Source: Candidatus Peregrinibacteria bacterium
GTDB taxonomy: Bacteria; Patescibacteriota; Gracilibacteria; UBA1369; UBA12463
Length of the DNA stretch: 64,000 nt
Direction of reading: 5' to 3'
Assembly (NCBI GenBank): GCA_037447365.1
Contig: JBBIGU010000002.1
Span: 6,678 to 70,677, forward strand
Of the stretch, positions 41,880 to 50,873 are shown in pieces. The notes under the pieces were generated by a model that worked only from the letters and a program-made list of their open reading frames with translations, was not told the DNA's origin and ran no database searches. Positions within the stretch are counted from its first letter, which is position 1. Every line of letters starts with the position of its first letter. The position numbers and the translations under genes are program-made.

Positions 41880-42000
41880 GCGGCTATTATAATGGTATGC
41901 AAAAAGTTCGTACAGCTACGGATCTATTTAAAAATAGTCAGGTATGTTATTTGTTACCTGCGTTTGAAATGAGTTTTTGAAATCTTTGCAAGATCTTCAA

Positions 42001-42171
42001 TTATTTAAGCTTGCTAGCCATTTCTGCTTTCTTGGCCTGAGCGTTAGCAAGAATAGAAGCTTTTCGAATACGTGCGAGAGACTTGTTTCGCTTTTTTGCG
42101 TTGCTCGACTTTGGTCGAAGTTTTGGAATATCTGTTACTCCGTGTTTGTGGTTGACGTGTGCGTTAGACAT
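42001..42171 (-). CDS. small highly basic protein (56 aa), absent from the ORF track
   Basis: Hand translation of the minus strand gives MSNAHVNHKHGVTDIPKLRPKSSNAKKRNKSLARIRKASILANAQAKKAEMASKLK, with an ATG start and a TAA stop. Same strand as the ftsQ-like gene, 121 nt upstream of it. Confidence 0.35.
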   Translation of the reverse strand: MSNAHVNHKHGVTDIPKLRPKSSNAKKRNKSLARIRKASILANAQAKKAEMASKLK

Positions 42172-42282
42172 GATGGACGTGGATTACTTTTTGTGTCGGC
42201 ATTGTAAGGTGTGTTTTGTACTATTGTCAATGAAAGGTTGAGGCTTTGTGTGTCTGAGGAGATATTTTTCTAGCTTCGTGGT

Positions 42283-42864
42283 ATGATATTTGTAATGACT
42301 ATATCGAAAAAACAGCTTTGGTTTCTCGTTTTCTTGGGATTTTCTATGTCGCTCCTTGCTTTGCGGATTGATCTCCATGATTTTGTAGAAACTCCTTGGT
42401 ATTTGTGGCCCTGGGTTCCGATTTGTTCCATATACCCACTGTTTTTAGCTTTGAATTATCTTTATTTCTTGCGATTTGGGAGGTTTCTCCAATTTCTTCT
42501 GTATTTTACGATTTTTGGAATAATCGGTTATGGAATTATTGCACCCATTTTTTACATCCTATACATGATGGAGTCTGGCTTTTCCTGGTATGAATCTGGA
42601 AATATTTTTTGGGTTTGGTTGTATGCGAGTCAGGCTTTTCTGCTTTGGCCGTACCGTAGGCAGCTTCCTTGGTGGCAGATTTTTTTGATTGGCGGGTATT
42701 TTTTCGTAAAAGATATTCTTGACCGATTTAGTATTACATGGTCTTATGTGAGATTCCGAGTGTTGTCAGGCGATCTTATGAATATTGTTTTTTGTTTACT
42801 TGTAGTCATTCATATCGGATTGCTCTTTGTTTTTCTGTATCAATCGTTTCGACATCATAAATAA
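42283..42864 (+). CDS. polytopic membrane protein (possibly DUF1405-like)
   Basis: 193 aa, five to six hydrophobic helices rich in Trp/Tyr/Phe. An alternative ATG lies at 42295, just downstream of a TGgTATGAT element. Confidence 0.5.
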   Translation: MIFVMTISKKQLWFLVFLGFSMSLLALRIDLHDFVETPWYLWPWVPICSIYPLFLALNYLYFLRFGRFLQFLLYFTIFGIIGYGIIAPIFYILYMMESGFSWYESGNIFWVWLYASQAFLLWPYRRQLPWWQIFLIGGYFFVKDILDRFSITWSYVRFRVLSGDLMNIVFCLLVVIHIGLLFVFLYQSFRHHK

Positions 42865-42969
42865 TCTTCTACTATAGGTGTCTCTTTTGGGAATTTTTCT
42901 TTTGTTGTATATATTCATACTGTGTGGTAGGGTATTCCACGGTTTTTTATTTGATATCTATCTGTACTG

Positions 42970-43872
42970 ATGATTTTGTCTTACGCTAAGCTTTATCCGA
43001 TGGGTAATAGTACTGTTTTAATTGATTCTTTGAAGAATGAAGTTACTCCTAATATGTTCAAAACGGTCGCCTCTCTCGTCATGCAGGAAAAATATATTCC
43101 ATGCGAACAAGTTGGATTTGTATGTCCACCTCGTCGCCCAGAGCATGTTTCTCGACTTGAGATGATGGGTGGTGAACTCTGCGTTAATGCACTTAGAACT
43201 CTTGGATATCTTCATCATATGCGAACAGGGCAGAGAACGTTCTTGGTTGAATCTTCAGGATCCGATCAGTCTTTTTCTCTTAAGGTAACTCCTGACGATC
43301 TTGTTTCTCTGAATTTTGATATGAATTTTCAGCACATTTCGCTTTCTGAAAATCTTAGTCTTATTAATCTTCAGGGTATCTCTCATTTTGTTGAGAAATT
43401 TCTTGATGTTGACATCATTACTCAAGAATATATCGTAAAGCGTCATGAATTCCTTCGTAAGGAGTATGCTCGGTATGTTCAGCATCCTGGTGCGGTTGGT
43501 TATATTCCATATGATCAAAAGGATATTATCAAGATTGTTCCTTATATTTACATTGAGGATACCAATACGAGAATTTTTGAGACCGCCTGTGGTTCCGGTT
43601 CTATTGCTGTTGCTGTTCGTGAACATACTCTCTTTAAGAAGACAGAAGTTTCTTTTATTCGACAGCCAAGCTCAGAGATTTTTCAATTATATGTTTTTGA
43701 GTTGGCACCAAATAATTTTCACGTTGATATTACAAGTGACGTGAATCTTGTTTCCCAAGGTCAGATTTTTCTTTCTGAAAAGGAATTGGGCTTGTCAGCA
43801 AACAGAGCATCTTACTTGAAGGAGAGTACGGCTTCGTCAATGCTCGAAAATGTTTCCTGTTTGCGCTCTTGA
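42970..43872 (+). CDS. DapF-fold epimerase/racemase-like protein
   Basis: 300 aa. N-terminus LYPMGNSTVLID. Two pseudo-symmetric halves carry GGELCVNALR and ETACGSGSIA at the positions of the two catalytic Cys of diaminopimelate epimerase. Confidence 0.5.
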   Translation: MILSYAKLYPMGNSTVLIDSLKNEVTPNMFKTVASLVMQEKYIPCEQVGFVCPPRRPEHVSRLEMMGGELCVNALRTLGYLHHMRTGQRTFLVESSGSDQSFSLKVTPDDLVSLNFDMNFQHISLSENLSLINLQGISHFVEKFLDVDIITQEYIVKRHEFLRKEYARYVQHPGAVGYIPYDQKDIIKIVPYIYIEDTNTRIFETACGSGSIAVAVREHTLFKKTEVSFIRQPSSEIFQLYVFELAPNNFHVDITSDVNLVSQGQIFLSEKELGLSANRASYLKESTASSMLENVSCLRS

Positions 43873-45149
43873 AGATTCTTGATTGTATATCCATTTTCCC
43901 CTTTGGCTCCTTCTATCATCACCATGTAGCCAATGCCTCGTTTCGATGCGTCTTCAAGTTGCTTTCCAATTTTTTTGTTTCCATCAAAGTAGACTTCAGT
44001 ATTGAAGCCTGCTTTTCGGAATGCTTGCGCTACCTTGTTACCTGTAGCTCGCTGCTCTTCTCCGAAAAGCCCGATCATTACATCGGTTACCGATTGTTTT
44101 TCAAATGAAAGAAGTTTTTCTTGTTTTATGATGCTTAATAGTCTCGAGAGGCCGATAGAAATTCCTACACCAGGAAGGTTTTTGTTTATGAATTTGCTTG
44201 CCAGATTAGCATAGCGTCCTCCTGAACAAATACTTCCGTATTTTTCGAGACCATCGAGCGTTGTCTCATATACCGATCCTGTGTAATAGTTGAGTCCTCG
44301 TGCGATCTTTGGATTGAAAACAATCTTTCCTCTTTTTGTTGTTGAGTCTTTGAGGAGGGTTCCAATTGCCTGCAATTCCACTTTTCCTTCTTCGAGAAGG
44401 GGATTGGTTCCCTTAATATTTTTTAAGAATATTTCAATTTCGCTGATCGGAACTTTTGTATCAATTATCGTTACAAACTCATTTGCTGCTTCAGCGCTGA
44501 GGCCTAATTCCGTCTTCAGACCTGTTCGAGTTGCAGCAATTCCAACTTTATCTGTCTTATCGATAATTCGAAGTGCGTCACTTATTTGATCATCTTTTAT
44601 TCCAAAAATTTGGAGGAGTCCTTGGAGAAATTTTCTGTGATTGATGTGGATGGTGAAGTTTCCAATATTTATTCCTTCAAAAACTTCTTGTACGGCCGAA
44701 ACAACTTCTGCGTCGTAGTGAAGAGGTAGGTCGTCGATTCCAATAACATCAATATCTGCTTGATAAAACTCCCTAAATCGTCCTTTTTGAGGGCGCTCTC
44801 CTCTCCATACTTTTTGAATTTGAGATCGTTTAAATGGAAATCGGAGTTCATTGAAGTGTTCTGCTGTATATCGTGCAAAAGGCACAGTAAGATCAAAGCG
44901 AAGTCCGCGCTCTACTTCTTGAGCGTCGTCTCCTTCTGCTGCTGCTCTTTTGATGCCATATACTTCTTTTTTAATCACGCCATCTTCATTTTCGAGAGTT
45001 TCCATGTTTTCAACTGCGGGTGTTTCAATCGGAGTGTAGCCATAGCTTGCATATACCATTTCCATTATTCCTCTGATGCGATTTTCTACTAATTGTTCCG
45101 ATGGAAGATTTTCCGGAAAACCACCGGGAGCACGCGATTTATCTGACAT
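43812..45149 (-). CDS. hisS: histidyl-tRNA synthetase
   Basis: 445 aa. Class II motif 2 FREFYQADIDVIG, motif 3 GGRYANL and a C-terminal anticodon-binding domain. Confidence 0.9.
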   Translation of the reverse strand: MSDKSRAPGGFPENLPSEQLVENRIRGIMEMVYASYGYTPIETPAVENMETLENEDGVIKKEVYGIKRAAAEGDDAQEVERGLRFDLTVPFARYTAEHFNELRFPFKRSQIQKVWRGERPQKGRFREFYQADIDVIGIDDLPLHYDAEVVSAVQEVFEGINIGNFTIHINHRKFLQGLLQIFGIKDDQISDALRIIDKTDKVGIAATRTGLKTELGLSAEAANEFVTIIDTKVPISEIEIFLKNIKGTNPLLEEGKVELQAIGTLLKDSTTKRGKIVFNPKIARGLNYYTGSVYETTLDGLEKYGSICSGGRYANLASKFINKNLPGVGISIGLSRLLSIIKQEKLLSFEKQSVTDVMIGLFGEEQRATGNKVAQAFRKAGFNTEVYFDGNKKIGKQLEDASKRGIGYMVMIEGAKGENGYTIKNLQERKQETFSSIDEAVLSFK

Positions 45150-45385
45150 GGATGGGGGTATTAAAAATGTGTTGAATGATAGATGCCTCTGCTTGTGAGT
45201 ATCATTACTCTCAATTTGCTTTCAGTCAAACCTTTTTGTTGGTTTTTTAGCTTTGTTTTTGTGATTTTACGCGTCTTTGGAATTGCTTTTTTATATGTTT
45301 CAGGTAATCTTGTCGACACTTAATAATTATTTATTTTCTTGTCAAGATAGTCGGCCTGGAAGCGAATATATTTTATATTTTTTGA

Positions 45386-46957
45386 ATGAGTGACTCGTCA
45401 TTTTCATCTTCTACTCCTTTAACCACTACTCCTTCTTCAACATTAACTCCCCAAATTTTTGATCGTCTTATTAAATCTATTTTAGATCGGAAGCCCGTTT
45501 TAAAAGATATTATGATTGAGTATGGGGATTCTCCGATGATTGAGTATGCCAGACGGCATCTTACGAATCCTGTTGAATGTGTTTTTCCAGAGCGAGCTCC
45601 GGAACTTCTTGAGGTTATTCGAGAGGAGATAGATCGTCTTTTTGGGGCTGATATTGCTGGACGTGCTGTAGCTCAGATGAAAAAGTTTTATAGTGTTTCA
45701 ACAGCTGATCATCATGGACCGATTACGCATTCTTTTTTCTTGAATCCAAATATTCTTTGTGCTGCAGCGTCAGTTGAGGATCCTGCATCTCGAAAAGATT
45801 TTATTGTGACTTTTCCTTGCGCAAATGTTTCTTTCAATAACTCATCGTTTCCTCGTGGAATTCTTTATCACGCTATGAATAAGGGTCGACTTGATATGGG
45901 TCGTCTCGCATTTGTTCCTGCCAAAAATCGTCAAGCAACGTTATATGGTTATCCGGCCTATACTCGTGAAGATGTGAAACGTATATATCAAGATATCGAT
46001 CGACAGGTGACAGAGTTTGGTCTTTCCCGAAAAGTCATGAATGATCTTCGTGGCATTGTTGCTGAGATTTACGATAAAGATGAAATATATGACCAAAAGG
46101 ACTATTCAGATCAGATGACGCTCACAAATTATGCTCTTTGGAAAAAATTCTTTCCTGCTGGTTCAGACGTTCCAGATCTTCTCTATGTTCCTATGGAGAA
46201 TATTGCAGTGAGTGCTTTTTTGAAACATCATATCGATCAGAAAACTATCTTGAGTAAGCTCATTTTTGATGAAGATTATTCAAAAATTATTGCCGAGATT
46301 TTTAATGGGGTTCAAGGTGCTTTTGATTTTACTTCTGGTGCTGGGACTTTTATGTTTTGGGGTTTGTCGGAAGGTAAAAATTATCTTGTATCCTTGCGAC
46401 GAGAGGGGAATTTCTTGGTTGATAAAACAGGTGAATTTCGTGTTGAGCTTACTCCTGCGTCACTTCGAGAGGCTCTTGAAAAAAAACGTATCGCACCGAG
46501 TATGCTGTTCGTGTTTATGGTTCTTGTTTTTTATTATGGACTTCGATGTCTTGGTGGTTTTAGTCAGGTAAACTACCTCACCCACATGAAAGAACAGTGG
46601 GTCAAGTTTTTGACTCGTATTAATGAAACTAGCGACATTTCATCTGTCGAGAAGGTTCAAACTCGTAGTTTTGTGAGCGATATTGGTATTGCCTATATTA
46701 AAGATACTTTAGGTAAAAATTGTCTTGCCTCTGGTATTGACATGATTCTTTATCAAAATCCTGATGCGTGGAATTTACTGAAAAAGGCTGTTACTACTCT
46801 TCCTCTCGCGGAAGGATTTTATGCGCTTTGCGCTGATCTCTATCCTGCAATTTACTCTGTCACTGAGCGGGATCCAGTCCTATCTGCTATTGGCGCTTCC
46901 GATCTTCTTAAATATCTTGAAGTTGAAAAGCGCTGCGAAGCATGTGTAAAAATGTAA
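45386..46957 (+). CDS. hypothetical protein (523 aa), no recognised family
   Basis: Long ATG ORF with a Ser/Thr-rich N-terminus, STADHHGPITHSFF, FPRGILYH, and a hydrophobic segment MLFVFMVLVFYYGLRCLGGFSQVNYL. Followed 95 nt later by the ATP-grasp gene. Confidence 0.6.
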   Translation: MSDSSFSSSTPLTTTPSSTLTPQIFDRLIKSILDRKPVLKDIMIEYGDSPMIEYARRHLTNPVECVFPERAPELLEVIREEIDRLFGADIAGRAVAQMKKFYSVSTADHHGPITHSFFLNPNILCAAASVEDPASRKDFIVTFPCANVSFNNSSFPRGILYHAMNKGRLDMGRLAFVPAKNRQATLYGYPAYTREDVKRIYQDIDRQVTEFGLSRKVMNDLRGIVAEIYDKDEIYDQKDYSDQMTLTNYALWKKFFPAGSDVPDLLYVPMENIAVSAFLKHHIDQKTILSKLIFDEDYSKIIAEIFNGVQGAFDFTSGAGTFMFWGLSEGKNYLVSLRREGNFLVDKTGEFRVELTPASLREALEKKRIAPSMLFVFMVLVFYYGLRCLGGFSQVNYLTHMKEQWVKFLTRINETSDISSVEKVQTRSFVSDIGIAYIKDTLGKNCLASGIDMILYQNPDAWNLLKKAVTTLPLAEGFYALCADLYPAIYSVTERDPVLSAIGASDLLKYLEVEKRCEACVKM

Positions 46958-47052
46958 TTCTCTTCTGAGGCACACCTTACTGATGTGCATTTTTACTTAA
47001 AATCGTGTATACTATTCGAGGTTTATTTTGATTACACATTTCATTTATTTTT

Positions 47053-48309
47053 ATGGGACATAAAATTGAATATTCTCTCTCGAGATACTTTCCTGAAGGT
47101 ACAGAATATTTTTACGGATATCCTGCTGAACAAGACTCACACTTTTTCAATGGAGTTCCTCCGGAAATTGAAGAGATGGTATCTGGTCGACCAATGGTGT
47201 GCGCTGGTCCAAACGTGAAAGCTGTTTGTTTTTCTGCCTGTCTTGATTCTATTCCATTTTCTATTCTTCGCGATGACCTCGATGTGATTCGTGTTGATCG
47301 AAAACAGATTCTTACGTTACCAAAAGATATTAATGTTAAAATTCGTGGTTCGAAGCGTAATAAGCTTATCAAGAATGCGCTCTTTGAAATGGCTGGACCA
47401 GGTCAGCTTGTGATGGCTCAGCCGTATCTTGATCCTCGAGCAAAAACGTACTATGCGATTCCGCCACACCGAAGTATTTGGCTTAATGATAAGCGCAATA
47501 TGACGTCCTATATTCCAAAGGCTTATCTTCCGGAGATCTATGAAGAGTTTATGGATGGTGCTTGTTTTCAGCAGGCTGATCAACTTCCTCTTCCGTGTGT
47601 TATCAAGGTTACATCTTCATCGTCTGGTGACGGTGTTCGTATTTGTTATACCAATGAAGATGTTGAGCGTGCAAAGGCTGATTTTGGTCACCTTGAAGGT
47701 ATGATTTTCGTGAGTGAGTATGTGAAGATTCATAGAAATTTTGCCGTTCAATTTGGTATTTCCCATAATCCTGAACAGCCAATTGAAATTATTAACTGGC
47801 ATGAACAGATGGTGTCTCCTTTTGGAGGATTTTTGGGTGGTATTATTGAACCACATGAAAATGAAGAGCTTTTTCAGCCTTTAAATAAGGTCCTTCTCGA
47901 AAAAATTCTTCCTGAGGTTCGACGTCGTGGTTGGTATGGTGTTGGCGGTTTTGACGTTCTCATGACGGAGGATGAACGGTTCTACTTTATTGATCCGAAC
48001 TTTCGTATGACGGGTATGACGGTCTATGATTTCTTGGCTCGAAATAATGTCATCAAAAAATCACTTCTGAGTTTTAATTCAGAGTTTCATGGTAGCGAGC
48101 GTGAGTTCCGTGAAAAGATTCTTCCTGTTGCCAAGCCTGGCGCTAATCAACTTCTCTACGTCACGGTTCTGACGCATGGCAAAAAAGTTTTCCGTTTGAA
48201 TTCGGCGTTATTATTCGATAAACGCAGTGATATTCCAAAAGTCACAGAAAAACTTTTGAGTCTCGGCCTCGTTTCATCGGTACTAACCGATGCGACGAAG
48301 ATGGCTTAG
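47053..48309 (+). CDS. ATP-grasp fold ligase
   Basis: 418 aa. PCVIKVTSSSSGDGVRICYTNEDVERA (Lys plus Gly-rich loop region), IFVSEYV and GGFDVLMTEDERFYFIDPNFRMTG (Mg/ATP-binding strand pattern). Confidence 0.65.
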   Translation: MGHKIEYSLSRYFPEGTEYFYGYPAEQDSHFFNGVPPEIEEMVSGRPMVCAGPNVKAVCFSACLDSIPFSILRDDLDVIRVDRKQILTLPKDINVKIRGSKRNKLIKNALFEMAGPGQLVMAQPYLDPRAKTYYAIPPHRSIWLNDKRNMTSYIPKAYLPEIYEEFMDGACFQQADQLPLPCVIKVTSSSSGDGVRICYTNEDVERAKADFGHLEGMIFVSEYVKIHRNFAVQFGISHNPEQPIEIINWHEQMVSPFGGFLGGIIEPHENEELFQPLNKVLLEKILPEVRRRGWYGVGGFDVLMTEDERFYFIDPNFRMTGMTVYDFLARNNVIKKSLLSFNSEFHGSEREFREKILPVAKPGANQLLYVTVLTHGKKVFRLNSALLFDKRSDIPKVTEKLLSLGLVSSVLTDATKMA

Positions 48310-49721
48310 AGGTTTGGTTTGGTGAGGTTTTTTGGATCGAGGATTTTTTCGAGTTTGTCTTTTGGCATGAGTTTTTTCTCGAGAATGAGGGCTTCGAGGT
48401 GGGTGCCACGGCGGAGAGCTTCGTTGACGAGTTCGGCGGTCTGGTGGTAGCCGAGGTAGGGGTTGAGGGCGGTTGCGACGCAGAGTGATTTTTCGAGAAG
48501 TTCTTGGCAGCGCTTCGTATTTGCGATGATATTTTCTACGCAAAATTCACGGAAAAGTTGGAATCCGTTTTTGAGGAGCGAGCAGGACTCTTGGAGATTT
48601 TTGAGAATGAGAGGAGTCATGACGTTGAGCTCGAGCTGACCGTTCATCACAGCAAGTTCTACGGCGCGATCGTTTCCTTGAACTTGGTAGGCGATCATCT
48701 GTACACATTCGGCGACAGATGGGTTGACCTTTCCTGGCATGATAGATGAGCCTGGCTCGACTTCTGGGAGTTGAATTTCTCCGATGCCACCGATTGGCCC
48801 CATGTTGAGCAATTTGAGATCTTGTGCGATACGCTGCATAGTGATCGCGAGATTTCTGAGTGCGGACGAGACGCTTGCGAACGTATTCATATTGCTTGTT
48901 GTCTCAAAAAGATTTTTTGTTGGCTTGAGGGGAAGTTTCGTGAGTTTAGCAAGATAACGAGTGACGAGTTTTTGGTATTGTGGATATGTGTTAATGCCGG
49001 TTCCAAGTGCGGTTCCTCCGAGTCCGATTTCATGGAGAAGGGACGTGGCGTGTTTGAGTTCTTGAATATCTTTTTCGATGGCGGTGGCGAACGACTCGAA
49101 CTCCTGACCAAGCGTTACTGGAACGGCGTCTTGTAAGTGCGTCCGTCCGACCTTGAGAATTTTTGCGAACTTTTTTGCTTTTGCGTGGAGTGATTTGGCG
49201 AAACGGAAAGCTTCTTTTTGAAGCGCGATCGACTCCCAGCAGATGGCGATGCGGGTTGAGGTGGGGAAGACGTCGTTTGTCGACTGGGCCATGTTGACGT
49301 GATTGTTTGGATTCACGAATTTGTATGAGCCCTTTGGTGCGCCGAGAAGTTCGTTGGCACGATTTGCCACGATCTCGTTGATATTCATATTGTAAGGAGT
49401 TCCCGCGCCGGCCTGAAATATATCGATCTGATATTCATCATCAAATTTTCCGTCCATGAATTCCTGAAGCGCCTGCAATATTGGTTTGGTGAGTTTTGGA
49501 TCGAGCTTTCCGAGCTCAGTATTTGCTTGAGTTGCCGCATACTTCACGCAGGCGATCGCACACTTGAATGTCGTCGATGCCTTGATGGGACTGATATTGA
49601 AGTTGGCGAGTGCTCGAGTGGTAAATGAGCCATAATATGCTTCTTTTGGGACGTTGATATTTCCGAGTGCGTCGTTTTCGAGGCGGGTGGCTGTGGTTAT
49701 GGTGTTTTTTTTGATTGTCAT
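48306..49721 (-). CDS. aspA: aspartate ammonia-lyase (fumarase/aspartase superfamily)
   Basis: GSSIMPGKVNP signature. The N-terminal EAYYGSFTTRALANFNIS resembles AspA more than FumC. ATG 49721 is preferred over the longer track ORF. Confidence 0.75.
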   Translation of the reverse strand: MTIKKNTITTATRLENDALGNINVPKEAYYGSFTTRALANFNISPIKASTTFKCAIACVKYAATQANTELGKLDPKLTKPILQALQEFMDGKFDDEYQIDIFQAGAGTPYNMNINEIVANRANELLGAPKGSYKFVNPNNHVNMAQSTNDVFPTSTRIAICWESIALQKEAFRFAKSLHAKAKKFAKILKVGRTHLQDAVPVTLGQEFESFATAIEKDIQELKHATSLLHEIGLGGTALGTGINTYPQYQKLVTRYLAKLTKLPLKPTKNLFETTSNMNTFASVSSALRNLAITMQRIAQDLKLLNMGPIGGIGEIQLPEVEPGSSIMPGKVNPSVAECVQMIAYQVQGNDRAVELAVMNGQLELNVMTPLILKNLQESCSLLKNGFQLFREFCVENIIANTKRCQELLEKSLCVATALNPYLGYHQTAELVNEALRRGTHLEALILEKKLMPKDKLEKILDPKNLTKPNL

Positions 49722-49979
49722 AGGGTGAAGATTTTTATGGAGATTTCTGTCTTGTAGTTTTGCATGATCAGATTCCAATCTGCAATACAAAGAGTGCAGC
49801 GGGTAGTACCTTCAAAACCTCATTTTCTGGATGTATATCACTACGCTATCACATAGTTATCACTGAGCAATTAATTTGTAATACATACGTAAAACACTCT
49901 TTTAAAATCCCAAGTCCCACCTCATCCCTTGCTTTTATTCTAAAATATGTTACTATTGTTCCTCAATATTTTTACGTCT

Positions 49980-50636
49980 ATGTCGGAAATCCAGCTTTCC
50001 TTTGAACAACTTGGCCTTCCCGAACACCATGAAGATGTGCTCTGCTATGAAAAGCATGGCTTTATCTGGAAGTTTCGTAAGCTGAATAATGAAAAAGATA
50101 AATTTATCGTTAATGTTTTTTTACCTAATGAAAAGAAAATTGGGTACATGACTTTTTATGTGACACATCCTCCCCAGGACGGGCAGCAGCTTGTTTTTGG
50201 TGGGCTCTATATTTCTGATGATCTTCGTGGTCGAGGACTTGGTGGTTTGTGTATGGGGGAGCTCTTTGCTTTTTCAAATCAGCTTCAAGTTCCTCTTCAT
50301 AGCGCTGTTCCTCAGGGTAAACCCTTGACTTGTTCAATGCTCCATAAATTCGGTTTTGCTCCGAAAACTATTTCGGGCGATCAGGTGGTTATTGTAGGAC
50401 GACCTTCAAATTCTGAATCTTCAAAAATTCCTGTTCACTTTCCTTCGGAGTCTGCGGGTCGGCACTTTATACATTCTCGTATTGCTCGAACTGGGCAATA
50501 TCAGCTTGTCGGATCTATTGACGAGATTGTTGATGGGGTTCGCGTTGTTTTGAATAAACGATATCTCTTCCAGGATAAGGTCAAAGCTCAGACTCAGCTT
50601 CAACGTATCGAAGAGAAACTCTTGCATTTTAATTAG
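49980..50636 (+). CDS. GNAT-like acetyltransferase-fold protein
   Basis: LYISDDLRGRGLGGLCMGELF (motif A, R-x-x-G-x-G) and MLHKFGF (motif B-like). ATG 49980 is preferred. Confidence 0.45.
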   Translation: MSEIQLSFEQLGLPEHHEDVLCYEKHGFIWKFRKLNNEKDKFIVNVFLPNEKKIGYMTFYVTHPPQDGQQLVFGGLYISDDLRGRGLGGLCMGELFAFSNQLQVPLHSAVPQGKPLTCSMLHKFGFAPKTISGDQVVIVGRPSNSESSKIPVHFPSESAGRHFIHSRIARTGQYQLVGSIDEIVDGVRVVLNKRYLFQDKVKAQTQLQRIEEKLLHFN

Positions 50637-50678
50637 TCCCTTGGTAGACTCCTACCCGCTTCATTAAAGCAAAATTTT

Positions 50679-50873
50679 ATGTCAAACGTCTGCTCAGTCA
50701 CAGGAAAAAAGCCAACAACTGGCCACAATGTTAGTCACTCAATGCGTCATACAAAGCGCCGATTCTTACCAAATTTGCTTTGGAAGAAGGTCTGGAATCC
50801 GCTTAAGAAGCGTTTCGAGCGAATCAAGGTTTCTACTCAGGGTCTCAAGGCTTTGAACAAGCGATCACGATAA
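50679..50873 (+). CDS. rpmB: 50S ribosomal protein L28
   Basis: 64 aa. CSVTGKKPTTGHNVSHSMRHTKRRFLPNL. Confidence 0.9.
   Translation: MSNVCSVTGKKPTTGHNVSHSMRHTKRRFLPNLLWKKVWNPLKKRFERIKVSTQGLKALNKRSR

What the first reader, a model, noticed from the sequence alone, without database searches (positions are those of the whole stretch)
45386..48309. Uncharacterised 523-aa protein paired with an ATP-grasp ligase
A large ORF with no motif I can assign is followed 95 nt later, on the same strand, by a 418-aa ATP-grasp enzyme. Its notable segments are STADHHGPITHSFF, FPRGILYH and the buried hydrophobic MLFVFMVLVFYYGLRCLGGFSQVNYL. The ATP-grasp core is in the C-terminal two thirds, after an unassigned approximately 150-aa pre-domain.

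ATP-grasp enzymes ligate carboxylates to amines or thiols, as in peptide or amino-acid ligation and protein tail modification. They commonly work with a partner that provides or holds the substrate.

The pair is flanked by hisS, aspartate ammonia-lyase and a GNAT-like gene. That suggests, speculatively, amino-acid (aspartate?) ligation chemistry. A weak hairpin and a TGTATACT element in the 95-nt spacer mean the two genes may also be expressed separately.
Basis: inference. Interest (0 to 1): 0.6.

Follow-up and report, generated by a model that had tools for sequence, protein, structure and literature searches.

The report
BshC-like ligase plus ATP-grasp cassette
The "unknown" 523-aa protein belongs to an unnamed enzyme family of ultra-small (CPR/Patescibacteria) bacteria that folds like the cysteine-adding enzyme BshC, and it sits with an ATP-grasp amino-acid ligase, a histidine-racemase-like enzyme and an extra histidyl-tRNA synthetase in an accessory cassette that probably builds a small histidine-containing peptide-like compound.

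Summary
Both ORFs are real: X523 at 45386-46957 and an ATP-grasp at 47053-48309, 95 nt apart.

**X523.** It has no Pfam, NCBIfam or PDB sequence match. It belongs to a large family seen here only in Patescibacteria. A confident AlphaFold model (pLDDT 93.5) matches one PDB fold strongly, BshC (4wbd), followed weakly by class I LysRS.

**ATP-grasp.** It is a full-length structural relative of LdmS, the S. aureus Asp-Met ligase. It lacks LdmS's specificity residues, so it is not an orthologue. Its "pre-domain" is the ordinary LdmS-type N-domain.

**The pair.** The link looks functional. One natural protein fuses X to this ATP-grasp family, four fuse X to a CphA-type ATP-grasp, and one fuses X to a CntK-like racemase. 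Adjacency recurs in separate X clades. The link is not obligate: 28 of 81 loci have such a neighbour, and a same-genus genome has the ATP-grasp without X.

**New here.** The adjacent hisS is a second, accessory HisRS. In this genus it occurs only in the genomes carrying this X clade.

**Best reading.** A four-gene cassette for a small, probably histidine-containing, amide-linked product. The chemistry is inferred, not shown.

The parts
42283..42864 (+). DUF1405 membrane protein; the left anchor of the variable cassette site
   Evidence: PF07187 at 9.6e-6. A homologue flanks the same site in L001, L031 and same-genus genome G031.
42970..43872 (+). Cofactor-independent racemase of the CntK/HisR (histidine racemase) type, DapF fold
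   Evidence: NF033599 CntK at 1.6e-25 and NF052224 HisR at 6.8e-23, both below cut-off. The best PDB hits are F. nucleatum HisR 9cr6/9cr1 (6e-14) and S. aureus CntK 6l4l/6jis. Both catalytic Cys and the two Glu proposed to bind imidazole align (GELC, ETAC). Single copy in the genome.
43812..45149 (-). Second, accessory histidyl-tRNA synthetase (HisRS2)
   Evidence: TIGR00442 at 359.9 bits against a cut-off of 286.75. A 24%-identical HisRS on contig C23 next to tsaD scores 442.4. In the genus it occurs only in G000, G206 and G207, always beside X.
45150..45385 (.). Divergent intergenic region with a conserved block of about 90 nt carrying promoter-like hexamers for hisS2
   Evidence: The block AGTATCATTACTCTCAAT....TTTCAGTCAAAC is invariant in window, L001 and L002. 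On the minus strand it reads TTGACT, 17 nt, AATGAT at 45229-45201. No Rfam match.
45386..46957 (+). X523: a member of an unnamed Patescibacteria family with a BshC-like / class I aaRS-like fold; putative amide-forming ligase
   Evidence: No Pfam, NCBIfam or PDB sequence hit. 106 homologues and 1335 representative clusters. AF2 pLDDT 93.5, pTM 0.92. Foldseek 4wbd BshC at E 1.8e-6, prob 1.00.
46958..47052 (.). 95-nt AT-rich spacer with no significant structure
   Evidence: Sequence; fold z-score -0.95; no terminator-like site. The gap is 55-71 nt in L001/L002 and -10 nt in L041, and the genes are fused in P0259.
47053..48309 (+). LdmS-type ATP-grasp L-amino-acid ligase of unknown specificity
   Evidence: NF047900 at 2.4e-22 (79 bits against a cut-off of 475) and 7r8p at 3e-12. 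An orthologous domain gives TM 0.81-0.82 to 7r8q/7r8p. More than 233 Patescibacteria homologues. Single copy in the genome.
48306..49790 (-). Aspartate ammonia-lyase/fumarase-family gene (aspA); convergent, its stop overlaps the ATP-grasp stop; the right anchor of the cassette site
   Evidence: PF00206 at 1.1e-85 and PF10415. It stays in place in L001, L002, L031, L089 and G031 while the cassette content differs.

Best explanation
The finding is half of a four-gene accessory cassette at 42970-48309: a HisR/CntK-type racemase, a second HisRS, X523 and an LdmS-type ATP-grasp ligase. The cassette lies between two anchor genes, DUF1405 and aspA. X523 is an enzyme of an unnamed Patescibacteria family with the Rossmann-type catalytic fold shared by BshC and class I aminoacyl-tRNA synthetases. 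I propose it forms an amide bond between an amino acid and an amine acceptor, as BshC is thought to do. I propose the ATP-grasp forms a second amide bond by the usual acyl-phosphate mechanism. The racemase would supply a D-amino acid, most likely D-histidine. The product would be a small peptide or pseudopeptide containing histidine. Shown: the genes, the folds, the fusions and the distribution. Inferred: catalysis by X523, the order of the steps, histidine as the substrate, and the role of HisRS2.
For: Fold: AF2 pLDDT 93.5, pTM 0.92. Foldseek gives 4wbd BshC at E 1.8e-6, prob 1.00, over 504 columns, then class I LysRS at E 0.02, then nothing below E 1. Invariant polar residues sit in loops after core strands (T106, D108, H109, S149, N152, Q243, E271, Q394, T426).

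Coupling to ligases:
- P0259 is X plus this ATP-grasp family.
- P0096, P0099, P0295 and P0329 are X plus a CphA/GshF-type ATP-grasp.
- P0016 is X plus a CntK-like racemase, in an operon with a GCS2 ligase and a LAL-type ATP-grasp.
- 28 of 81 loci have an ATP-grasp, a CntK-like racemase or a class IV aminotransferase directly adjacent, often with overlaps of -7 to +4 nt.
- These links recur in separate X clades.
- The own genome has exactly one CntK-like and one LdmS-like gene, both in this cassette.
- Two ATP-grasp orthologues sampled blind (L093, L094) have an X gene within about 4 kb.

Histidine:
- The racemase's best PDB hits are the two characterised His racemases, with the E-x-C and E-x-x-C motifs conserved.
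- The second HisRS is confined to genomes with this X clade.
- A PepD-like Xaa-His dipeptidase follows the ATP-grasp in L093/L094.
Against: - No sequence-level homology to BshC. PF10079 finds nothing in the genome even at E <= 1, and hhalign reaches only prob 1%, E 0.05.
- BshC's own reaction has never been reconstituted (PMC5790435), so 'works like BshC' carries little mechanistic content.
- The foldseek TM is only 0.43.
- About 65% of X loci show no ligase or racemase neighbour.
- G031 has the ATP-grasp without X.
- X occurs in only 7 of 201 sampled Patescibacteria genomes.
- The model of the natural fusion does not fix the domain arrangement (pTM 0.67).
- The racemase scores far below the CntK and HisR cut-offs.
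- PepD-type peptidases are broad-range.
- HisRS2 could be a hitch-hiker.
Confidence: 0.55

Rival explanations
1. X523 is a tRNA-dependent amide synthase. HisRS2 charges tRNA-His, and X523, with its class I aaRS-like fold, transfers the histidyl group from His-tRNA to an acceptor. The ATP-grasp then extends or prepares that acceptor.
For: The second-best fold match is class I LysRS. A dedicated second HisRS sits divergently next to X523 and occurs in the genus only with this X clade. BshC is thought to need an unidentified activated form of cysteine (PMC5790435).
Against: L089 belongs to the same X clade and has no hisS in its cluster. The IleRS next to X in five or six other loci is the single housekeeping copy, so aaRS duplication is not general. 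The family is mildly acidic (median pI 6.05), which gives no positive sign of RNA binding. X keeps an H-H-G motif at the position of HIGH, which fits direct ATP use equally well.
Confidence: 0.2
2. The cassette makes an inhibitor of histidyl-tRNA synthetase or another histidine antimetabolite, and HisRS2 is the producer's resistant copy. This follows the pattern of duplicated aaRS genes in antibiotic gene clusters.
For: Two full-length HisRS only 24% identical in a 1.1-Mb genome, with the extra copy inside the cassette. The cassette is accessory and patchy within one genus.
Against: No exporter or other typical cluster gene is evident in the cassette. L089 lacks the extra HisRS. Nothing bears directly on product activity.
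Confidence: 0.1
3. X523 is a non-catalytic scaffold or substrate-presenting partner of the ATP-grasp.
For: The fusions and adjacency show physical or functional coupling. BshC, the closest fold, has no demonstrated catalysis in vitro.
Against: There are eighteen invariant columns, many of them polar. X occurs without any ATP-grasp neighbour in most loci, and in tandem paralogous copies. It pairs with two unrelated ATP-grasp clades, which is hard to reconcile with a specific docking scaffold.
Confidence: 0.1
4. The two genes are unrelated neighbours that share a strand by chance.
For: Only 4 of 81 X loci have this ATP-grasp adjacent. G031 has the ATP-grasp without X.
Against: There is a natural full-length fusion. 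The link recurs in three separate X clades (adjacency in two, the fusion in a third). Co-location is seen again when starting from the ATP-grasp.
Confidence: 0.03

Closest known systems
BshC (YllA), the putative cysteine-adding enzyme of bacillithiol synthesis; PDB 4wbd; Pfam PF10079 + PF24850
   Same: It is the only strong fold match (E 1.8e-6, prob 1.00, 504 columns). Length is similar, about 520-540 aa. The conserved loops are colinear: X 'CLGGFSQVNYLTxMK' aligns with BshC 'IAGPGEINYWGELK' in the top hhalign segment.
   Different: There is no significant sequence similarity. The BshC motifs GGQQ, EDHD, RPxxQE and GPGExxYW are replaced by STADHHGP, NNSSFPRG and GGFSQVNYL. No coiled-coil domain hit. 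The genome has no PIG-L/BshB deacetylase, so there is no bacillithiol pathway. The partners here are racemases and ATP-grasp ligases, not BshA/BshB.
Class I aminoacyl-tRNA synthetase catalytic domain (class I LysRS 1irx), and from my own knowledge MshC, the CysRS-like Cys:GlcN-Ins ligase
   Same: It is the second-ranked fold match (E 0.02, 459 columns). An H-H-G motif follows the first core strand, where HIGH sits in class I enzymes (the motif equivalence is my inference).
   Different: TM is only 0.34. No KMSKS motif and no recognisable anticodon-binding domain. No sequence similarity.
LdmS, the S. aureus L-aspartate--L-methionine ligase (PDB 7r8p/7r8q; NF047900; PMC9486568)
   Same: It is the best sequence and structure match for the ATP-grasp, full length including the N-domain. 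LdmS is also paired with an M20 peptidase, as the ATP-grasp orthologues in L093/L094 are.
   Different: The score is 79 bits against an equivalog cut-off of 475. Y252->F, N255->G, N307->T and S309->M; only R305 is kept. Published LdmS homologues are confined to Firmicutes.
GshF, a bifunctional enzyme of about 520-aa glutamate-cysteine ligase plus a C-terminal ATP-grasp
   Same: The X-ATP-grasp fusions have the same two-ligase layout. The CphA-type ATP-grasp fused to X hits the GshF ATP-grasp region (NF002688 at 8.4e-41, positions 478-747).
   Different: The N-terminal ligase here has a BshC-like fold, not a GCL fold. No sequence relation was found.
CntK (staphylopine) and HisR (F. nucleatum) histidine racemases
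   Same: They are the best family and PDB matches for the upstream racemase. The catalytic Cys pair and both proposed imidazole-binding Glu residues are conserved.
   Different: Scores of 90 and 82 bits fall against cut-offs of 300 and 400. No cntL/cntM (opine metallophore) genes were seen among the ORFs scanned in the cassette.

Membership tests
BshC family (PF10079 Rossmann-like_BshC) | Sequence match to the family model above its cut-off | tested here: not met
   No Pfam hit at E <= 0.1. A six-frame search of the whole genome with PF10079 finds nothing at E <= 1.
BshC family (PF10079 Rossmann-like_BshC) | Fold like 4wbd | tested here: met
   Foldseek E 1.8e-6, prob 1.00, 504 columns, TM 0.42-0.43.
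BshC family (PF10079 Rossmann-like_BshC) | Conserved BshC motifs (GGQQ, AGEDHD, RPxMQE, GPGExxYW) | tested here: not met
   Invariant columns of BshC alignment A2 compared with X alignment A1. hhalign gives prob 1%, E 0.05, and only the last motif aligns loosely.
BshC family (PF10079 Rossmann-like_BshC) | Occurs with bacillithiol genes (BshB/PIG-L deacetylase) | tested here: not met
   PF02585 is absent from the 100%-complete own genome. BshA was not tested.
Class I aminoacyl-tRNA synthetases | HIGH and KMSKS signatures and an anticodon-binding domain | tested here: inconclusive
   Only a partial H-H-G-P at the HIGH position. No KMSKS. Fold match to 1irx at E 0.02. No model coordinates were available to map the residues.
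ATP-grasp superfamily | ATP-grasp fold with the ATP-binding Lys, the Mg-binding acidic/Asn pair and the following Arg | tested here: met
   VIKV at 183, DPNFR at 314. Aligned to the 7r8p core. Orthologue TM 0.81 to LdmS, with PurK and biotin carboxylase next. Pfam domain scores fall below the gathering cut-offs.
LdmS (NF047900, L-Asp--L-Met ligase) | Equivalog score, and the specificity residues R47, Y252, N255, R305, N307 and S309 | tested here: not met
   79 bits against a cut-off of 475. The alignment gives F, G, R, T and M at 252, 255, 305, 307 and 309. The residue list comes from PMC9486568. R47 could not be aligned.
Cofactor-independent histidine racemase (CntK NF033599 / HisR NF052224) | Two catalytic Cys plus Glu at -2 and -3 from them (HisR E65/C67, E206/C209) | tested here: met
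   MMGGELC and FETACGSG align to HisR MMGGEFC and YENSCASG. Residue roles come from PMC11602996.
Cofactor-independent histidine racemase (CntK NF033599 / HisR NF052224) | Score above the curated cut-off | tested here: not met
   90.1 against 300 and 81.7 against 400.
Histidyl-tRNA synthetase (TIGR00442) | Equivalog score, full length including the anticodon-binding domain | tested here: met
   359.9 bits against 286.75, residues 7-434. PF13393 and PF03129 both hit.

The most novel reading that the evidence does not exclude
The BshC-fold family is a new class of amide synthase that does not activate its amino acid itself. It would take the amino acid pre-activated from a dedicated partner: His-tRNA from the cassette's own HisRS2, or an acyl-phosphate from the fused or adjacent ATP-grasp. 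If so, the recurring fusions in CPR bacteria would also point to the long-missing 'activated cysteine' donor of BshC in bacillithiol synthesis.
Probability: 0.15. Interest if true: 0.8.

Novelty: new variant of a known kind. Interest (0 to 1): 0.6.

Why it matters
Patescibacteria have tiny genomes and few biosynthetic pathways. A widespread accessory module of two or three amide-forming enzymes plus D-amino-acid-supplying enzymes is therefore unexpected and has no described product.

The family is the only detectable structural relative of BshC outside the bacillithiol producers, and BshC's reaction is still unsolved. Natural fusions of the BshC-like domain to ATP-grasp ligases and to a racemase give concrete hypotheses about what such enzymes need.

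This window adds a compact, testable four-gene version. It carries three pointers to histidine: the racemase type, the private HisRS, and the PepD-like neighbour in relatives. That makes heterologous expression and metabolite detection straightforward. I found no paper that describes BshC-like proteins in Patescibacteria.

Tried and rejected
1. **ATP-grasp as a replacement D-Ala-D-Ala ligase or a cell-wall function.** Rejected. The genome has a proper Ddl and four Mur ligases. The PBP2 next to X in 8 loci is on the opposite strand and confined to essentially one clade.
2. **X523 as a true BshC or bacillithiol gene.** Rejected.
3. **ATP-grasp as an LdmS orthologue making Asp-Met.** Rejected on the specificity residues.
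4. **X cassettes generally carry their own aaRS.** Not supported. The IleRS beside X in L024, L032, L039, L048 and L052 is the only IleRS in those genomes.
5. **Regulatory RNA or terminator in the spacer or upstream region.** Nothing was found.
6. **A small precursor peptide (RiPP) upstream of X523.** Only chance-sized ORFs of 21-52 aa; none was pursued.
7. **Sequence-profile link to any solved structure.** None at E <= 10.
8. **hhalign to BshC.** Not significant.
9. **First alignment for the fusion model (A4).** It mis-registered the X rows onto the ATP-grasp half. It was rebuilt as A6.
10. **Model of the fusion as a proxy for the heterocomplex.** Both domains are confident but pTM is 0.67, so the interface is undecided.
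11. **Pfam tally of operon neighbours.** Uninformative, because Pfam misses these divergent families.
13. **The BshC structure paper (PMC4303302).** Not held.
Full report
**1. Observation**

The window has a 523-aa ORF at 45386-46957 (here X523). 95 nt further on the same strand is a 418-aa ORF at 47053-48309. The three quoted peptide segments start at residues 105, 155 and 373.

X523 has no hit in Pfam or NCBIfam at E <= 0.1. It has no hit among PDB sequences at E <= 10, whether searched as a single sequence or as a 55-sequence profile.

The second ORF is an ATP-grasp. Its best family is NF047900, the LdmS Asp-Met ligase, at 2.4e-22 (79 bits against a cut-off of 475). Its best PDB chain is 7r8p at 3e-12. 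All Pfam ATP-grasp domain hits fall below their gathering scores.

The scan finds no terminator-like site there, and Rfam finds nothing in 42000-50800.

**2. What X523 is**

It belongs to a large family.
- A word-indexed search gave 106 relatives. Every source name given was a 'hypothetical protein' of Peregrinibacteria, Parcubacteria, Magasanikbacteria, Gracilibacteria or, in one case, Kapabacteria.
- An exhaustive profile search found 1335 representative clusters at E <= 1e-3 and 697 at E <= 1e-30.
- Eighteen alignment columns are invariant. They include T106, D108 and H109 (STADHHGP), S149, N152, P156 and G158 (NNSSFPRG), Q243, E271, and Y383, Y384, G385, G390, G391 and Q394 (FYYGLxCLGGFSQVNYL).

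An AlphaFold2 model built on that alignment is confident, with mean pLDDT 93.5 and pTM 0.92. The 'buried hydrophobic' segment is a helix followed by a core strand.

Foldseek against the PDB gives one strong match. This is B. subtilis BshC (4wbd) at E 1.8e-6, probability 1.00, 504 aligned columns and TM 0.43. Class I lysyl-tRNA synthetase (1irx) follows at E 0.02, and nothing else falls below E 1.

Sequence methods do not confirm the relationship.
- PF10079 finds nothing in the whole genome, even at E <= 1.
- I checked a BshC sequence against 4wbd_A (identical) and built a 22-member BshC alignment from it.
- hhalign against that alignment gives only prob 1%, E 0.05.
- The top segment is colinear. 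It pairs X 'CLGGFSQVNYLTxMK' with BshC 'IAGPGEINYWGELK'.

The BshC signature motifs are not conserved in X. The genome also lacks a PIG-L/BshB deacetylase. X523 therefore resembles BshC in fold but is not a BshC.

The motif S-T-A-D-H-H-G-P follows the first core strand (E103-105) and precedes helix 116-131. In class I synthetases and related nucleotidyltransferases this is where HIGH or HxGH sits. That equivalence is my inference. I could not test it because no model coordinates were available to me.

**3. Is the pair linked?**

I fetched 80 loci encoding X relatives from species-representative genomes. I called and clustered their ORFs and re-scored the neighbours with HMMs built from the clusters.

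Counts of direct neighbours of X, with the window included (81 loci):

| Neighbour directly adjacent to X | Loci |
|---|---|
| LdmS-type ATP-grasp (window, L001, L002, L041) | 4 |
| CphA/GshF-type ATP-grasp (TIGR02068 1.8e-54, partial match) | 8, plus 1 at +2 |
| CntK-like racemase | 9 by HMM, plus 2 more by tblastn |
| Class IV aminotransferase (BCAT / D-amino-acid transaminase type) | 6 |
| A second X paralogue | 7 |

Gaps to these neighbours are often -7 to +4 nt. In total, 28 of 81 loci have a ligase, racemase or transaminase directly beside X.

Natural fusions make the case stronger.
- P0259 (942 aa) is X followed by an orthologue of this very ATP-grasp, 40% identical over residues 9-416. 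It is one continuous ORF on its contig.
- P0096, P0099, P0295 and P0329 are X plus the CphA-type ATP-grasp.
- P0016 is X plus a CntK-like racemase. In its operon it is preceded by a GCS2 carboxylate-amine ligase and a LAL-type ATP-grasp.

On a tree of 96 X sequences, the window's X lies in a long-branched, fully supported clade with L001, L002 and P0009. The link to the LdmS-type ATP-grasp appears in three separate places: this clade, L041, and the P0259 fusion. The CphA-type and CntK-like links also recur in several clades.

I also started from the ATP-grasp. Its family has more than 233 Patescibacteria members. Of three orthologues sampled blind, two (L093 and L094, which are related to each other) have an X gene within about 4 kb. 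The third lies next to an Orn/DAP-decarboxylase-like gene.

The link is real but facultative. X occurs in only 7 of 201 sampled Patescibacteria genomes. Most X loci show no such partner. Same-genus genome G031 has two tandem ATP-grasp genes and the decarboxylase-like gene at this site, but no X.

**4. The ATP-grasp**

I modelled the natural fusion P0259 (pLDDT 89.6, pTM 0.67). Its C-terminal half matches LdmS (7r8q, 7r8p) over 412-421 columns with target-normalised TM 0.81-0.82. A Streptomyces ATP-grasp peptide ligase (8ynd, TM about 0.6), PurK and biotin carboxylases rank well below that.

The LdmS paper defines orthologues by R47, Y252, N255, R305, N307 and S309 (PMC9486568). In the alignment the window protein keeps R305 but has F, G, T and M at the other four alignable positions. 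Its substrates are unknown, and aspartate is not indicated.

The genome has a normal Ddl and four Mur ligases, so this enzyme is not the cell-wall ligase.

The pTM of 0.67 for the fusion leaves the domain arrangement undecided.

**5. The wider cassette, and histidine**

*Racemase.* The gene at 42970-43872 is a DapF-fold racemase.
- Its best families are the two histidine racemases, CntK (1.6e-25) and HisR (6.8e-23). DapF scores only 1.6e-3.
- Its best PDB hits are F. nucleatum HisR and S. aureus CntK.
- The alignment conserves both catalytic cysteines.
- It also conserves the two glutamates that the HisR paper proposes bind the imidazole: E-x-C and E-x-x-C, here GELC and ETAC.

*Second HisRS.* The hisS between the racemase and X523 is a second HisRS.
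- The 1.1-Mb, 100%-complete genome has another full-length HisRS on contig C23, next to tsaD. The two are 24% identical.
- Both score above the TIGR00442 cut-off: 359.9 bits here and 442.4 on C23.
- Among nine genomes of the genus, the window-type HisRS occurs only in G000, G207 (91% identity) and G206 (74%). In G206 and G207 it lies beside X on the opposite strand, as it does in the window.
- Of the six other genus members, G201 and G031 gave only a weak C23-type hit, and G202-G205 gave no hit at E <= 1e-10.
- G201 has an X gene but no second HisRS.

*Peptidase.* In L093 and L094 the ATP-grasp is followed by a PepD-like 'Xaa-His dipeptidase' (TIGR01893, 266 bits, below cut-off). This recalls the hmrA/ldmS peptidase-ligase operon of S. 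aureus.

These are three pointers to histidine. None is proof. PepD enzymes are broad-range, and cluster L089, which belongs to the same X clade, has no hisS. L089 instead has the ATP-grasp, a 409-aa unknown protein, a DAO-family oxidoreductase, the CntK-like gene and X.

*The site.* The site between DUF1405 and aspA holds a different cassette in different relatives:

| Genome or locus | Cassette content |
|---|---|
| Window, L001, L002 | Racemase, HisRS2, X, ATP-grasp |
| G031 | Two ATP-grasps, decarboxylase-like gene |
| L031 | X of another clade, class IV aminotransferase |

. L089, whose X belongs to the window's clade, also ends at a convergent aspA, but I did not look for a DUF1405 anchor there. 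aspA is a fixed anchor at this site, not evidence for aspartate chemistry.

**6. Mechanism proposed**

*Shown:* the gene content, the folds, the fusions, and the accessory distribution.

*Inferred:*
- the racemase makes a D-amino acid, probably D-His;
- X523 forms an amide bond using an activated amino acid;
- the ATP-grasp forms another amide bond through an acyl-phosphate;
- the product is a small histidine-containing peptide or pseudopeptide.

The order of the steps and the acceptor are unknown.

*Rivals:*
- X523 is tRNA-dependent and is fed by HisRS2;
- HisRS2 is a self-resistance copy against a HisRS-directed product;
- X523 is a non-catalytic partner;
- the two genes are chance neighbours. 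The fusions argue against this.

**7. Comparison and novelty**

The closest known systems are BshC (fold only), class I aaRS/MshC-type ligases, LdmS, the two-ligase layout of GshF, and CntK/HisR. Each fails at least one membership test, as listed in the membership table.

I found no paper that links BshC-like proteins to Patescibacteria.

After I had formed this reading, I looked up earlier notes of this scan. Several agents working on other genomes had reached the same family-level conclusion. Those notes are not independent evidence.

What this window adds:
- the LdmS-type partner and its natural fusion;
- the private HisRS;
- the conserved imidazole-binding motifs of the racemase;
- the variable-cassette site.

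**8. Verdict**

This is a new variant of known kinds of enzyme, with interest about 0.6.

Noticed in passing
window 43812-45149 (-); own genome contig C23:6283-7656 (-) = L092: The genome carries two full-length HisRS genes that are only 24% identical. The window copy is accessory: 3 of 9 genomes of the genus have it, always beside X523. The C23 copy next to tsaD looks like the housekeeping one.
   Followed up: partly
window 45176-45290: A non-coding block of about 90 nt between hisS2 and X523 is almost invariant in window, L001 and L002, although the flanking proteins are 73-90% identical. It contains TTGACT, 17 nt, AATGAT on the minus strand, which is probably the hisS2 promoter. No Rfam match.
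   Followed up: partly
window 42283-49790; L088 (G031:C28), L031, L089: The interval between DUF1405 and aspA is a variable site. Relatives hold different sets of amino-acid enzymes there: two ATP-grasps plus an Orn/DAP-decarboxylase-like gene, or X plus a class IV aminotransferase. L089 holds ATP-grasp, a 409-aa unknown, DAO, racemase and X next to aspA; I did not check for a DUF1405 anchor there.
   Followed up: partly
window 43812-43872 and 48306-48309: There are two convergent overlaps. The racemase gene's 3' end overlaps the hisS2 3' end by 61 nt. The ATP-grasp and aspA stop codons overlap within 4 nt, leaving no room for terminators.
   Followed up: no
L036, L038, L047, L049, L061, L077, L032, L037: X paralogues occur in tandem, with three copies in L036. 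One deep, long-branched paralogue clade (L036_x1, L037_x1, L049_x1, L077_x1) is always found together with a second X copy in the same locus (adjacent in three of the four). This suggests heteromers or consecutive steps.
   Followed up: no
L091 126-5511: An operon of a GCS2 carboxylate-amine ligase, a LAL-type ATP-grasp and an X-racemase fusion. That is three different amide-forming enzyme types in a row.
   Followed up: no
L093 4921-12221; L094 4922-13191: Orthologues of the ATP-grasp sit in an RlmN-like radical SAM, ATP-grasp, PepD-like dipeptidase operon, with an X gene convergent a few genes further on. L094 also has an aromatic amino-acid hydroxylase there.
   Followed up: partly
L088 6307-7632; L090 6136-7470; L095 7307-8638: An Orn/DAP/Arg-decarboxylase-like PLP enzyme (45-48% identical among the three) lies convergently next to this ATP-grasp family in three unrelated contigs. 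It is a second recurrent partner.
   Followed up: no
L004, L028, L032, L036, L045, L048, L055, L058, L061, L062, L064, L067, L068, L072, L080: Many MAG records titled 'uncultured Gammaproteobacteria bacterium' carry Patescibacteria-type loci. They are about 1 Mb where I checked (G229 1.3 Mb, G231 0.9 Mb) and show CPR-like gene order. The organism labels look wrong.
   Followed up: no
window 49947-50636: The 'GNAT-like' gene only just reaches the Pfam acetyltransferase cut-off (20.9 against 20.7 bits). Among the fetched loci it is conserved only in the closest relative, L001.
   Followed up: no
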